Virus genome (UHGV): UHGV-0020221
Length of the DNA: 20,399 nt
Source of the DNA: a virus
Reading direction: 5' to 3' (one strand)
Part shown: one piece after another, positions 16,479-16,844 of the stretch
Layout of the letters: the number at the start of each line of letters is the position of its first letter
Position numbering within the stretch: position 1 is the first letter of the stretch
The notes under the pieces: model-generated
Databases searched by the model: none
Told to the model about the DNA's origin: nothing
The model's input: the letters and a program-made list of their open reading frames with translations, nothing else
Made by a program: the position numbers and the translations under genes

Positions 16479-16844
16479 ATGAAAAAAGTTAACATTGGAA
16501 ACGTACCAAAGATGCTCGTTCCGCTCTTTGAGAGCGGTACAATTGTGTTTTGTAGAGACTTTCCAGAATGGCAACGCCTGCATCAAAAACTTGGCGTTGA
16601 CGTGCATGACTCGGACGCCAACGGAGCGTCTCATACAATGAGTAGCGAGAATGGTGTTTTGCATGTGATAGGCGTGTTCAATGGCAAACTATCTACTATT
16701 GCCCATGAGTGCGCTCACATGGCATTCGATATCTGCTCAAGGGTAGGTGTTGATGTTGAACCAGGAAGAGCCAACGAGACTTACTGCTACTTAATGAGCA
16801 GGCTTGTTGAGTTCTGCGAGCGACATATCAAAAAGCCGGAGTGA
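16479..16844 (+). CDS. Small cytoplasmic protein (121 aa) with HExxH zinc-metallopeptidase-like motif
   Basis: AGGA 4-5 nt before ATG 16479. No signal peptide. HECAH motif in ...KLSTIAHECAHMAFDICSRVG..., resembling the catalytic motif of ImmA/IrrE- or SprT-like minimal metallopeptidases. Divergently transcribed from the lipoprotein gene with only 34 bp between start codons. Confidence 0.55.
   Translation: MKKVNIGNVPKMLVPLFESGTIVFCRDFPEWQRLHQKLGVDVHDSDANGASHTMSSENGVLHVIGVFNGKLSTIAHECAHMAFDICSRVGVDVEPGRANETYCYLMSRLVEFCERHIKKPE

What the first reader, a model, noticed from the sequence alone, without database searches (positions are those of the whole stretch)
16479..16844. Minimal HExxH protein (121 aa) without signal peptide, candidate metallopeptidase effector or sensor
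The HECAH motif embedded in ...STIAHECAHMAFD... resembles catalytic motifs of ImmA/IrrE- and SprT-like zinc peptidases, but the protein is much smaller than typical members and is not paired with an adjacent HTH repressor target. It is paired with a lipoprotein instead. It could be a protease that processes or inactivates an incoming phage protein or a host factor, or a toxin-like effector.
Basis: partly seen in the sequence, partly recalled or inferred. Interest (0 to 1): 0.6.

Follow-up and report, generated by a model that had tools for sequence, protein, structure and literature searches.

The report
P22 hkcC: minimal phage zinc protease
The 121-residue HExxH protein is real and is gene hkcC of phage P22 and HK620, a long-known gene of unknown function. 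It belongs to a large phage family of very small, thermolysin-like zinc proteases, and its conserved neighbour is a tiny YjzC-like protein, not the lipoprotein.

Summary
The ORF at 16479-16844 (+) and its HECAH motif are confirmed. It is the only HExxH in all six frames of the window.

The window is an E. coli P22-like prophage. The ORF is hkcC (99% identical to P22 and HK620), sitting in the 'ant moron' between ejection gene 16 and the tailspike gene. Its function is unknown. It matches PHROG 1365 and has no Pfam, NCBIfam or PADLOC hit.

A profile search finds 546 clusters of about 120-residue proteins. H76, E77, H80 and E100 are the only invariant residues. The AlphaFold2 model (pLDDT 89) has the zincin beta-beta-alpha-beta-beta-alpha-alpha topology. 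The family profile aligns without gaps to thermolysin's HExxH...N165-E166 segment.

I therefore read it as a cytoplasmic minimal gluzincin metallopeptidase. It is oriented with lytic-phase operons in temperate phages and lies in early regions of N4-like phages. Its substrate is unknown.

The lipoprotein pairing is not conserved: P22 has sieA there, HK620 has hkcB, and SE1 has nothing. The conserved partner is orf59a, a convergent 59-residue YjzC-like protein, present in 13 of 13 loci down to 46% identity.

This is a new family of a known enzyme kind and is of moderate interest.

The parts
16479..16844 (+). hkcC coding sequence: 121 aa plus a TGA stop. Predicted minimal gluzincin-type zinc metallopeptidase.
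   Evidence: ORF. 99% aa identity to P22 13861-14223 and to HK620 hkcC. phrog_1365, E 1.7e-39. AlphaFold2 pLDDT 89.1, pTM 0.83. 546-cluster family.
16471..16474 (+). AGGA Shine-Dalgarno-like sequence, 4 nt before the hkcC ATG.
   Evidence: Read from the sequence. Identical in P22, HK620 and SE1.
16704..16718 (+). Codons for H76-E77-C78-A79-H80. This is the HExxH motif: two zinc ligands plus the catalytic Glu, on predicted helix 71-88.
   Evidence: H76, E77 and H80 are present in 170 of 177 family sequences, and the exceptions are broken genes. The motif aligns to thermolysin H142/E143/H146.
16773..16778 (+). Codons for N99-E100. E100 is the predicted third zinc ligand, at the N-terminus of predicted helix 100-116 (the 'glutamate helix').
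   Evidence: E100 is invariant in 129 of 129 diverse relatives, and this was not imposed by my selection. The H80-to-E100 spacing is 19-20 in 119 of 129. N99-E100 aligns with thermolysin N165-E166.
16479..16509 (-). Leftward promoter embedded in the first 31 nt of hkcC. It is the equivalent of the annotated P22 sieA promoter and probably drives the lipoprotein gene here.
   Evidence: The P22 record annotates the sieA promoter at 13861-13891 (-), which are the first 31 nt of the hkcC ORF. This stretch is identical in the window, P22, HK620 and SE1. Function in this window is inferred by homology only.
16833..16852 (.). Bidirectional hairpin terminator (AAGCCGG-AGTGAC-CCGGCTT) shared by hkcC and orf59a. 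The hkcC stop codon lies in its loop.
   Evidence: The terminator scan finds it on both strands. It is annotated as the mnt terminator in P22 and as bidirectional tORF59A in HK620. A hairpin with a different stem sequence is kept at the same place in L014 and L018.
16858..17037 (-). orf59a (HK620 'hkcD'): a 59-aa basic YjzC-like protein, convergent with hkcC across a 13-bp gap. This is the conserved partner of type-1 hkcC.
   Evidence: YjzC E 0.0017, sub-threshold; phrog_3202; relatives named YjzC family; distant ones carry PF14168. AlphaFold2 pLDDT 87.8 with three beta strands. Pairing shown.
15959..16444 (-). Context, not part of the module. A 161-aa lipoprotein gene (MKKSLLIIPLLLAGC...) occupies the slot that holds sieA in P22.
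   Evidence: phrog_6067 matches residues 18-178 of the longer ORF. The homology block shared with P22, HK620 and SE1 starts at about 16454, just upstream of this gene's start codon on its own strand, so the leftward gene is a swapped cassette. The same lipoprotein sits next to an unrelated gene in phage Gally.

Best explanation
The ORF is gene hkcC of the P22-like 'ant moron'. It encodes a soluble, cytoplasmic, single-domain zinc endopeptidase of the gluzincin type, reduced to the bare catalytic core of about 120 aa.

**Proposed active site (inferred).** H76 and H80 on the active-site helix, together with E100 at the start of the next helix, hold the zinc ion. E77 is the general base. The conserved GVF[DN] strand just before the helix is the edge strand that would bind a substrate peptide.

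**Proposed timing (inferred).** The gene has no promoter-like site of its own and lies in the same direction as the late operon. It is therefore most likely made during lytic growth, by late transcription reading through the moron. Distant relatives in N4-like and phiKMV-like phages sit among early or DNA-metabolism genes.

**Proposed role (inferred).** The family is an accessory, lytic-phase protease that cuts one or a few specific proteins that would otherwise hinder phage development. These could be host or defence proteins. In the P22-type cassette the target could be the co-inherited, oppositely transcribed YjzC-like Orf59a or something that Orf59a controls.

**Shown here:** the gene, the family, the invariant residues, the predicted fold and the synteny.

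**Inferred, not shown:** zinc binding, peptidase activity, timing of expression and the substrate.
For: **Identity of the gene**
- 99% identical to the P22 and HK620 hkcC ORFs.
- hkcC and 59a are named as the two P22 ant-moron genes of unknown function in PMC2629481 and PMC4837284.

**Family**
- 546 clusters at 50% identity. Median length is 122 aa, and 121 of 145 listed representatives are 100-140 aa.

**Catalytic signature**
- The only invariant columns among 129 relatives that are 23-44% identical to the query are H76, E77, H80 and E100.
- Y104 is conserved in 125 of 129, and the H80-to-E100 spacing is 19-20 in 119 of 129.

**Fold**
- The AlphaFold2 model has pLDDT 89 and pTM 0.83, with strands 11-13 and 21-25, helix 28-37, strands 49-56 and 59-66, helix 71-88 (HExxH) and helix 100-116 (E100). 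This is the zincin topology.
- The weak sequence hits of the family profile in PDB are mostly zincins (myroilysin, astacin-type BMP1, Lys-metalloendopeptidase). Among the Pfam scans of family members, SprT-like is the commonest match (18 of 129), with DUF5700, M48 and reprolysin-like also listed.
- hhalign of the family profile against thermolysin residues 135-193 gives 81% probability and E 1.2e-5 over 44 ungapped columns. HExxH lands on H142/E143/H146 and N99-E100 on N165-E166, and Glu166 is thermolysin's third zinc ligand.

**Cytoplasmic location**
- There is no hydrophobic leader.

**Lytic-phase orientation**
- Co-directional with gene 16 and the tailspike gene here and in P22, HK620, SE1 and Morganella prophages.
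- Co-directional with lysis and terminase genes in ST64T, L010, L023, L026 and L029.
- Co-directional with TerL and portal genes in L012, and with tail tube and tape-measure genes in L013-L018.
- No sigma-70-like site on the + strand upstream.
- PMC2629481 states that late-promoter transcription runs through the ant moron into gene 9.
- It is among the first small rightward genes next to the divergent terminase block in the N4-like phages phCDa and Kpn16-P2, and lies between the ligase and RNA polymerase genes in Kurepalu-1.

**Partner**
- A convergent orf59a lies 5-16 bp downstream in 13 of 13 intact loci found through hkcC at 46% identity or more. These are podovirus and siphovirus prophages of Salmonella, E. 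coli, Klebsiella, Rosenbergiella, Xenorhabdus, Proteus and Pasteurellaceae, plus metagenomic contigs.
Against: - No enzymatic, genetic or expression data exist for any member in the literature I could search.
- I could not read the model's coordinates, so the H76/H80/E100 geometry was not measured.
- The thermolysin comparison was chosen after the fact, so its E-value applies to one comparison only.
- The protein lacks the second subdomain that supplies transition-state residues in thermolysin (His231, Tyr157), so activity may need a partner or may be low.
- A3 was built from sequences that I pre-selected for HExxH. Invariance of those three residues in A3 is therefore partly by construction, although 170 of 177 sequences have the motif before any selection.
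- Late expression is inferred from orientation only. The simple promoter scan is insensitive.
- The hkcC-orf59a linkage could reflect a compact cassette that shares one terminator and has a common history, not a functional interaction. Type-2 relatives and lytic-phage relatives have no orf59a, and YjzC genes occur without hkcC.
Confidence: 0.6

Rival explanations
1. Protease-partner cassette. HkcC and the YjzC-like Orf59a form a two-gene, phase-split module. Orf59a is made in the lysogen, from Pmnt or its own promoter. Either it is the specific substrate of HkcC and is removed when lytic growth starts, or it is a tight-binding inhibitor or 'immunity' protein that neutralises leaky HkcC in the prophage state. 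This refines the best explanation and does not contradict it.
For: - The convergent pair has a 5-16 bp gap and a shared hairpin in 13 of 13 intact type-1 loci found through hkcC. It holds down to 46% HkcC and 64% Orf59a identity, and across podovirus ant morons and siphovirus tail operons.
- In the phage collection, 52 records hold hkcC at 95% identity or more and 52 hold orf59a at 95% or more.
- Orf59a is more conserved than HkcC: 76-81% against 57-63% identity.
- Orf59a is a compact beta protein, not a disordered peptide (pLDDT 88). That fits an inhibitor or effector better than a passive spacer.
- In P22, orf59a lies downstream of mnt on the prophage-expressed strand.
Against: - Type-2 HkcC relatives (42% identity or less) and those of lytic phages never have orf59a.
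- YjzC homologues occur alone in S. bongori prophages, in other mobile elements and in Gram-positive phages.
- One 48%-identical Moraxella locus has no orf59a.
- Linkage may simply reflect one ancestral cassette.
Confidence: 0.3
2. ImmA/IrrE-like anti-repressor. HkcC cleaves a phage repressor, here the neighbouring ribbon-helix-helix Mnt (or Arc), to de-repress the immI region or the tailspike gene.
For: - It has HExxH plus a downstream Glu ligand, as in IrrE.
- mnt lies about 290 bp away in the window, and also nearby in P22, SE1, Morganella and Proteus prophages.
Against: - No Peptidase_M78 hit appears in the query or among the listed (top 25 of 27) families for the 129 relatives.
- HK620 keeps hkcC although its mnt is only a remnant.
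- The siphovirus loci L013, L016 and L018 have no Mnt or Arc gene next to the pair.
- Relatives occur in strictly lytic N4-like and phiKMV-like phages.
- The gene is not in an operon with a repressor.
Confidence: 0.05
3. SprT/Wss1/Spartan-like protease that acts on DNA-bound proteins, such as DNA-protein crosslinks, during phage DNA metabolism.
For: - 18 of 129 relatives give weak PF10263 (SprT-like) hits, best E 1e-4.
- Some BFVD structural neighbours are named 'SprT-like'.
- The phiKMV-like homologue lies among DNA-metabolism genes.
Against: - The window protein has no PF10263 hit even at E<=1.
- The SprT-type third His, six residues after the second His, is Cys or Leu here. That column behaves as a hydrophobic core position.
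- There is no zinc-ribbon or basic DNA-binding module, and the protein is slightly acidic by my residue count.
Confidence: 0.05
4. Catalytically dead zincin-like scaffold or spurious ORF. On this reading the region only matters as the sieA-type promoter and the mnt terminator, as in the P22 RefSeq record, which annotates no CDS here.
For: - NC_002371.2 annotates only the sieA promoter and the mnt terminator over this stretch.
- The minimal domain lacks the second subdomain of larger gluzincins.
Against: - Protein-level conservation extends to 23-44% identity in 546 clusters from unrelated phage types that lack the P22 promoter and terminator.
- The general-base Glu and all three ligands are invariant.
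- The model is confident.
- Broken copies are rare and are visibly frameshifted.
Confidence: 0.05

Closest known systems
Thermolysin-type gluzincins (MEROPS clan MA(E): M4, and M3/M9/M32 by fold)
   Same: - It has HExxH on the active-site helix, and a Glu ligand 20 residues after the second His at the start of the next helix, preceded by Asn (N-E).
- The family profile aligns without gaps to thermolysin residues 136-179 (hhalign 81%).
   Different: - It has about 120 aa, against more than 300 in those enzymes.
- It has no C-terminal subdomain, so no equivalents of thermolysin Tyr157, Asp226 or His231.
- It has no propeptide and no secretion signal.
- Similarity is too weak for PDB-wide sequence or Foldseek searches to find it.
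- It is phage-encoded and cytoplasmic.
Minigluzincins (proabylysin and projannalysin; minimal soluble zincin scaffolds of about 100 aa). This comparison rests on my own knowledge; the term is used in PMC4559962.
   Same: It is a stand-alone catalytic core of about 100-120 aa with a beta sheet, a backing helix, an HExxH helix and a 'glutamate helix'.
   Different: - No sequence match to any PDB chain at E<=10 with the close-family profile.
- Those proteins are archaeal relatives of M48 and M56 peptidases, whereas this family is from phages.
- Their self-inhibition by the C-terminal tail is not evident here.
ImmA/IrrE (Peptidase_M78) anti-repressor proteases, including CapP of CBASS
   Same: - It is a small cytoplasmic HExxH + Glu metallopeptidase carried by mobile elements.
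- A few BFVD neighbours are named 'IrrE' at low probability.
   Different: - No PF06114 hit appears among the listed families.
- There is no adjacent or fused HTH substrate gene.
- It is about half the size.
- Its conserved neighbour is a YjzC-like beta protein on the opposite strand.
SprT-like / Wss1 / Spartan (PF10263)
   Same: This is the closest Pfam family by sequence: 18 of 129 relatives give sub-threshold hits, and some structural neighbours are named SprT-like.
   Different: - The third ligand is a Glu at +20, not a His at +6.
- There are no DNA-binding or zinc-ribbon modules.
- The query itself does not hit the family.
PHROG 1365, the existing unannotated phage protein family that already contains this protein
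   Same: The window protein (E 1.7e-39), ST64T orf129, mEp044_72, phCDa gp24 and Kurepalu-1 gp34 all match it.
   Different: PHROG lists it as 'unknown function'. The metallopeptidase reading and the orf59a linkage are additions made here.

Membership tests
Gluzincin zinc metallopeptidases (clan MA(E)) | HExxH motif on an alpha helix (two His ligands plus the catalytic Glu). | tested here: met
   HECAH is at residues 76-80, inside predicted helix 71-88. It is conserved in 170 of 177 family sequences, and the exceptions are broken genes.
Gluzincin zinc metallopeptidases (clan MA(E)) | Third zinc ligand is a Glu on a following helix, 18 or more residues downstream. | tested here: met
   E100 is invariant in 129 of 129. 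It lies 19-20 residues after H80 in 119 of 129 and is the first residue of helix 100-116. It aligns to thermolysin Glu166. This holds at the level of sequence and predicted secondary structure only.
Gluzincin zinc metallopeptidases (clan MA(E)) | Zincin fold: mixed beta sheet with an edge strand, a backing helix and an active-site helix. | tested here: inconclusive
Gluzincin zinc metallopeptidases (clan MA(E)) | Zinc binding and peptide-bond hydrolysis. | not testable with these tools
   This needs purified protein, metal analysis (ICP-MS) and protease assays with an E77A control.
ImmA/IrrE (Peptidase_M78, PF06114) | Match to the family model. | tested here: not met
   The query has no hit at E<=1. 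PF06114 is not among the 25 listed (of 27) families matched by 129 relatives at E<=0.1.
ImmA/IrrE (Peptidase_M78, PF06114) | Genetic coupling to an HTH (Xre-type) repressor that is the substrate. | tested here: not met
   The neighbours are a lipoprotein gene, YjzC-like orf59a and the RHH repressor gene mnt. No HTH gene is adjacent in any of the loci examined.
SprT-like / Wss1 / Spartan (PF10263) | Match to the family model at the curated threshold. | tested here: not met
   The query has no hit. Only 18 of 129 relatives give weak hits, best E 1e-4.
SprT-like / Wss1 / Spartan (PF10263) | Third zinc ligand is a His six residues after the second His (HExxHxxxxxH; from established knowledge). | tested here: not met
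   Position 86 is Leu in 75, Cys in 39 and His in 2 of 129 sequences.
Minigluzincins (proabylysin/projannalysin) | Detectable homology or a close structural match to the solved members. | tested here: not met
hkcC of P22-like phages / PHROG 1365 | Sequence identity to HK620 hkcC, and position in the ant moron between gene 16 and gene 9. | tested here: met
   99.2% aa identity to HK620 hkcC and to the P22 ORF. The gene order is the same: 16, leftward cassette, hkcC, orf59a, mnt, 9. phrog_1365 matches at E 1.7e-39.
Known anti-phage defence proteins (PADLOC-DB) | Match to any defence-system model. | tested here: not met
   No hit at E<=1 for HkcC, the lipoprotein or Orf59a.

The most novel reading that the evidence does not exclude
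The HkcC family is a widespread, unrecognised class of phage counter-host proteases: bare-core zinc endopeptidases made at the start of infection (N4-like and phiKMV-like phages) or during lytic growth (temperate phages). They would cleave a specific host or defence protein. In the P22-type cassette the protease would be genetically locked to a prophage-expressed YjzC-like effector. That would give a phase-split pair in which the lytic-phase protease removes, or is restrained by, the lysogenic-phase protein.
Probability: 0.2. Interest if true: 0.75.

Novelty: new member of a known kind. Interest (0 to 1): 0.42.

Why it matters
P22 is one of the best-studied phages, yet hkcC and orf59a in its immI/'ant moron' region have had no assigned function since the genome was annotated, and RefSeq P22 does not even list hkcC.

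- **It makes the gene testable.** Reading hkcC as a minimal thermolysin-like zinc protease gives an obvious point mutant (E77A) and an obvious candidate partner (Orf59a).
- **The family is large and unannotated.** It has at least 546 clusters at 50% identity. It is absent from Pfam, NCBIfam and PADLOC, and is spread over podoviruses, siphoviruses, and N4-like and phiKMV-like phages.
- **Its position suggests a role.** It lies in early regions of lytic phages, which makes it a reasonable candidate for a host-takeover or counter-defence protease. Few proteolytic examples of that class are known.
- **It is useful for enzymology.** The protein is one of the smallest predicted zincin catalytic cores, which helps in defining the minimum needed for metalloprotease activity.

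Tried and rejected

- Pfam, NCBIfam and PADLOC on the query gave nothing meaningful. The lantibiotic hits at E 0.03-0.14 are noise from the 'HEC' string.
- The PDB sequence search with the close-family profile gave no hit at E<=10.
- Foldseek against PDB gave nothing at E<=1e-3. The top hits are unrelated GTPases and aminopeptidase fragments with TM below 0.35.
- Foldseek against afdb50 was not available.
- The word-indexed search with A3 added only three weak new relatives (P0178-P0180).
- I tried to predict a fused HkcC-linker-Orf59a chain to test docking.
- Model coordinates are not exposed, so ligand distances could not be measured.

**Ideas rejected**
- A Cys4 structural metal site. C25, C78, C86 and C103 are invariant in the close subfamily. 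In the wide family, positions 25, 78 and 86 are mostly Leu, Val or Ala, so they are core positions and not ligands.
- The lipoprotein as a TIMP-like inhibitor partner, by analogy with the Listeria metzincin-lipoprotein pair in PMC8235301. HkcC has no signal peptide and the pairing is not conserved.
- An HExxH partner next to YjzC genes of Gram-positive phages. The neighbours in phiCT9441A have no HExxH.
- A second family copy in the window, at the lysis/terminase slot that ST64T uses. There is none.

**Literature**
- Searches for hkcC, YjzC, phage metalloprotease anti-defence and zincin found no functional data.
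Full report

The ORF is there. The ORF listing gives 16479..16844 on the + strand, with an ATG start and 121 codons, and the sequence reads ...KLSTIAHECAHMAFDICS.... An AGGA lies 4 nt upstream of the ATG.

HECAH (residues 76-80, nt 16704-16718) is the only HExxH in all six frames of the window. One such motif in about 40,000 codon positions is what chance gives, so the motif alone is not evidence.

The protein has no hydrophobic leader. Its most hydrophobic 15-residue stretch, residues 11-25, has a mean hydropathy of 1.3 and is modelled as two strands of the fold. 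The coordinates and the descriptive part of the finding are therefore correct.

**2. What is the surrounding DNA?**

The window is the late region of a P22-like (Lederbergvirus-type) prophage of E. coli. It is 100% identical to a chromosomal segment of E. coli IR53017 over the 1.6 kb tested. This exact arrangement occurs in 15 of 5,426 complete E. coli genomes.

The gene order around the finding is:

| Feature | Coordinates | Strand | Evidence |
|---|---|---|---|
| Ejection genes 20 and 16 | 12695-15945 | + | |
| Lipoprotein gene (161 aa, lipobox LAGC, phrog_6067) | 15959-16444 | - | |
| The finding | 16479-16844 | + | |
| 59-aa ORF | 16858-17037 | - | |
| mnt (Arc and Repressor_Mnt domains) | 17137-17388 | - | |
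| Tailspike gene | 17536-19527 | + | |

This is the region that Casjens and colleagues call the 'ant moron' of P22-like phages. They describe it as a fast-changing insert between genes 16 and 9. [quoted passage not shown]

**3. Which gene is it?**

tblastn shows the protein is 99.2% identical to an ORF at P22 13861-14223 and to hkcC of HK620. It is 98-99% identical to 'hypothetical proteins' of SE1, ST160, UAB_Phi20 and about 50 other Salmonella phages.

The P22 RefSeq record does not annotate a CDS there. It marks only the sieA promoter over the first 31 nt of the ORF (minus strand) and the mnt terminator over its last nucleotides. HK620 names the gene hkcC, 'unknown'. PMC4837284 lists it as 'hkcC, 121 aa, Unknown'.

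The finding is therefore a known, named ORF with no known function. It matches phrog_1365 ('unknown function', E 1.7e-39) and nothing in Pfam, NCBIfam or PADLOC.

**4. The family and its invariant residues**

- The word-indexed search found 32 close relatives.
- An exhaustive HMMER profile search of 1.84 billion representatives found 546 clusters at E<=1e-3 and 151 at E<=1e-10.
- The listed representatives have a median length of 122 aa, and 121 of 145 lie between 100 and 140 aa. This is a family of stand-alone small proteins.
- 170 of the 177 retrieved sequences have HExxH. The seven without it are visibly frameshifted, truncated or chimeric.
- In an alignment of 129 full-length relatives that are 23-44% identical to the query, the only invariant columns are H76, E77, H80 and E100.

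One caveat applies. I had selected those 129 sequences for the presence of HExxH, so only the invariance of E100 is an independent result.

E100 lies 19 or 20 residues after H80 in 119 of 129 sequences. It is usually preceded by Asn (94 of 129) and followed four residues later by Tyr (125 of 129). The family signature is roughly GVF[DN]-x4-TL-x-HExxH-x2-F-x6-G[VI]-x7,8-NE-x-[FY]CYL.

The four cysteines that are invariant in the close subfamily (C25, C78, C86, C103) are mostly Leu, Val or Ala in the wider family, apart from C103. They are core residues and not a second metal site.

**5. Predicted structure**

AlphaFold2 on the 18-sequence alignment gives a confident model, with mean pLDDT 89.1 and pTM 0.83. 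Its elements in order are strand 11-13, strand 21-25, helix 28-37, strands 49-56 and 59-66, helix 71-88 and helix 100-116. Helix 71-88 carries HExxH, and helix 100-116 starts at E100. This is the order of elements in the zincin catalytic core: sheet, backing helix, edge-strand hairpin, active-site helix, 'glutamate helix'.

Comparison with known structures gave the following.

- **Foldseek against PDB.** Nothing significant.
- **Foldseek against predicted viral structures.** 26 hits at E<=1e-3 with TM up to 0.83. They come from Pseudomonas, Ralstonia, Erwinia, Achromobacter, Serratia, Eggerthella and crAss-like phages. A few are named 'SprT-like', 'Metalloprotease' or 'IrrE' by their depositors.
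- **Sequence profiles.** The weak hits of the family profile in PDB are mostly zincins: myroilysin, BMP1 (astacin type) and Lys-metalloendopeptidase. When the 129 relatives were scanned one by one against Pfam, SprT-like was the commonest match (18 of 129, best E 1e-4). DUF5700, Peptidase_M48 and Reprolysin_2 were also listed, among unrelated weak hits.

The H80-to-E100 spacing equals thermolysin's H146-to-E166 spacing, so I compared the two directly. I first confirmed my recalled thermolysin fragment against PDB, where it is 100% identical to residues 135-193.

- BLASTP of HkcC against the fragment gives 30% identity with no gap between the HExxH motif and E100 (E 1e-6 for that single comparison).
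- hhalign of the 129-sequence profile against the fragment gives 81% probability and E 1.2e-5 over 44 ungapped columns. HExxH falls on H142/E143/H146 and N99-E100 on N165-E166.

Glu166 is thermolysin's third zinc ligand (established knowledge). I chose this comparison after seeing the spacing, so its statistics should be read modestly.

I could not measure ligand distances, because model coordinates are not exposed.

**6. Genomic context: the lipoprotein is not the partner, orf59a is**

The slot to the left of hkcC holds different genes in different phages:

| Phage | Gene to the left of hkcC | Evidence |
|---|---|---|
| P22 | sieA | |
| HK620 | hkcB | |
| SE1 | no annotated gene | |
| This window | the lipoprotein gene | |

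In phage Gally the same lipoprotein gene (97.5% identical) sits beside an unrelated 139-aa gene, with no hkcC.

An alignment of the window, P22, HK620 and SE1 shows that the shared block begins at about 16454. It includes the leftward ribosome-binding site (CTCCTT) and all of hkcC, while everything to the left differs. The leftward gene is thus an exchangeable cassette placed under the promoter that P22 annotates as P-sieA, which lies inside the first ten codons of hkcC.

The gene on the other side is constant. In every intact locus found through hkcC at 46% identity or more, a homologue of the 59-aa ORF lies immediately downstream on the opposite strand. There are 13 such loci: the window, P22, HK620, SE1, and prophages of Rosenbergiella, Klebsiella oxytoca, Xenorhabdus, Proteus and a Pasteurellaceae species, plus metagenomic contigs. 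The partner is 64-100% identical, and the two stop codons are 5-16 bp apart.

In most of these loci a hairpin spans the end of hkcC. Here it lies at 16833-16852 with the stop codon in its loop, and the scan detects it as a terminator on both strands. HK620 annotates it as a bidirectional terminator. L014 and L018 keep a hairpin of different sequence at the same place.

The pair occurs in two very different settings. One is the podovirus ant moron. The other is siphovirus prophages, between the tail tube/YdaY genes and the tape-measure gene. Morganella P22-like prophages, found through orf59a, show the same mnt-orf59a-hkcC arrangement. In the phage collection, the number of records with hkcC at 95% or more (52) equals the number with orf59a at 95% or more (52).

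The linkage has limits.

- More distant HkcC relatives (42% identity or less) never have orf59a.
- A 48%-identical Moraxella copy and a frameshifted Arsenophonus copy lack it.
- YjzC-like genes occur without hkcC in S. bongori prophages, other mobile elements and Gram-positive phages. The neighbours in Clostridium phage phiCT9441A have no HExxH.

Orf59a itself is a YjzC-family protein. It hits PF14168 below threshold at E 0.0017, relatives are named 'YjzC family' by UniRef, and distant relatives carry PF14168. It is basic, with a net charge of about +6 by my count. It is predicted with confidence (pLDDT 87.8) to be a compact three-stranded beta protein. I found nothing on its function.

**7. 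Orientation and likely timing**

Wherever the family occurs in temperate phages, it points the same way as the surrounding lytic-phase genes:

- with gene 16 and the tailspike gene, here and in P22, HK620, SE1 and Morganella prophages;
- between the DUF2560 gene or Rz and dec/terminase in ST64T, L, epsilon34 and the Citrobacter and Atlantibacter prophages;
- upstream of the terminase genes in L010;
- between TerL and the portal gene in L012;
- between the tail tube and tape-measure genes in the siphovirus prophages.

No sigma-70-like site precedes it on the + strand. PMC2629481 notes that late-promoter transcription runs through the ant moron to reach gene 9.

In the N4-like phages phCDa and Kpn16-P2, the homologue is among the first small rightward genes next to the divergent terminase block. 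By synteny with N4 this is the early region, which is my inference. In the phiKMV-like phage Kurepalu-1 it lies between the DNA ligase and RNA polymerase genes.

orf59a points the other way. In P22 it lies downstream of mnt on the prophage-expressed strand.

**8. Best explanation**

HkcC is a cytoplasmic, single-domain gluzincin-type zinc endopeptidase reduced to its catalytic core. It is made during lytic growth and is an accessory (moron or early) function, not a morphogenetic one. It probably cuts one or a few specific proteins.

- **Shown:** the gene, the family, the invariant H-E-H...E, the predicted topology and the synteny.
- **Inferred:** metal binding, catalysis, timing and target.

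For the target I rank three options. The first is a host or defence protein, favoured by the wide distribution and the early-region positions. The second is Orf59a or whatever it controls, favoured by the tight cassette in the P22-type subfamily. The third is a repressor such as Mnt, which is disfavoured.

My confidence in the core statement is about 0.6. I put a functional HkcC-Orf59a link at about 0.3.

**9. Comparison with known families**

- **How it would work.** It should work like a thermolysin-type gluzincin.
- **Gluzincin clan.** It meets the sequence-level definition (HExxH plus Glu on the next helix). Fold and activity remain unproven.
- **ImmA/IrrE.** It fails the membership tests: no model hit among the listed families and no HTH partner.
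- **SprT-like.** It fails here too: no model hit for the query, and no His at +6.
- **Minigluzincins.** It resembles them only in size and architecture.
- **Existing classification.** It is already a member of PHROG 1365 and is the named gene hkcC.

**10. Novelty and interest**

The ORF is not new, and the enzyme class is not new. Three things appear to be unrecorded in the libraries and papers I could search:

- the assignment of hkcC/PHROG 1365 to the gluzincins, with E100 as the third ligand;
- the size and breadth of the family;
- the conserved hkcC-orf59a convergent cassette.

I rate it a new member (a new family) of a known kind, with interest of about 0.4. The most novel reading not excluded is a widespread class of phage counter-host proteases, with a phase-split protease-effector pair in P22-like phages. 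I give that a probability of about 0.2.

Noticed in passing
window 15959-16444 (-), boundary at about 16454: A 161-aa lipoprotein gene (MKKSLLIIPLLLAGC..., Gln-rich middle, phrog_6067, no Pfam or PADLOC hit) occupies exactly the slot that holds sieA in P22 and hkcB in HK620. It sits downstream of the conserved P-sieA-type promoter and the shared ribosome-binding site. It is a swapped cassette, and by position it is a candidate prophage-expressed superinfection-exclusion lipoprotein. It is 97.5% identical in phage Gally (L002 3003-3485).
   Followed up: partly
window 16858-17037 (-): orf59a (HK620 'hkcD') is a YjzC-family protein that is basic (about +6). It is confidently predicted as a compact three-stranded beta domain (pLDDT 87.8) and is more conserved than hkcC. 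YjzC-like genes also appear as lone, reverse-oriented inserts inside structural operons of unrelated phages, for example Clostridium phage phiCT9441A between the minor head and scaffold genes (L030 2486-2653). Their function is unknown.
   Followed up: partly
window 16833-16852; L014 and L018 at the equivalent place: The bidirectional terminator hairpin overlaps the hkcC stop codon (TGA in the loop). In the Klebsiella-type loci the stem sequence differs (AACCGGCGC...GCGCCGGTT-like) but a hairpin is kept at the same position. This suggests selection for the structure and not for the sequence.
   Followed up: partly
NC_002371.2 (P22 RefSeq) 13861-14226; locus L003 2501-2866: The reference P22 record annotates no CDS for hkcC, although the intact 121-codon ORF is present and 99% identical. 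Only the sieA promoter and the mnt terminator are marked there. This looks like an annotation gap in a model phage genome.
   Followed up: yes
window 17137-17536: This ant moron keeps mnt but has no arc or ant. Only about 147 bp separate mnt from the tailspike start. Mnt therefore has no antirepressor gene to control, and what it regulates here (perhaps read-through into the tailspike gene) is unclear.
   Followed up: no
L005 (ST64T) 3001-3390; L023, L026, L029 around 5001-5336; window 1713-1985: A second subfamily (38-42% identical; ST64T orf129, phage L Orf129, epsilon34 gp70) sits in a different late-operon slot, between a DUF2560 gene and dec or the small terminase gene. The window has an ORF in the matching position upstream of TerS (1713-1955; not scanned against Pfam), and no HkcC copy follows it.
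   Followed up: partly
window 19604-19906 (+): A 100-aa ORF just downstream of the tailspike gene has hydrophobic stretches suggestive of membrane helices (MMNIEVDITPILHALCAVVAQVLVGLFTG...). It may be another prophage accessory or conversion gene.
   Followed up: no
L014 (Klebsiella oxytoca CP130257) 10241-12369: Just after the tape-measure gene of the siphovirus prophage that carries the hkcC-orf59a pair, there is a SNIPE/T5orf172-domain gene flanked by two Arc-family genes. This looks like another moron or defence-like insert in the tail operon.
   Followed up: no
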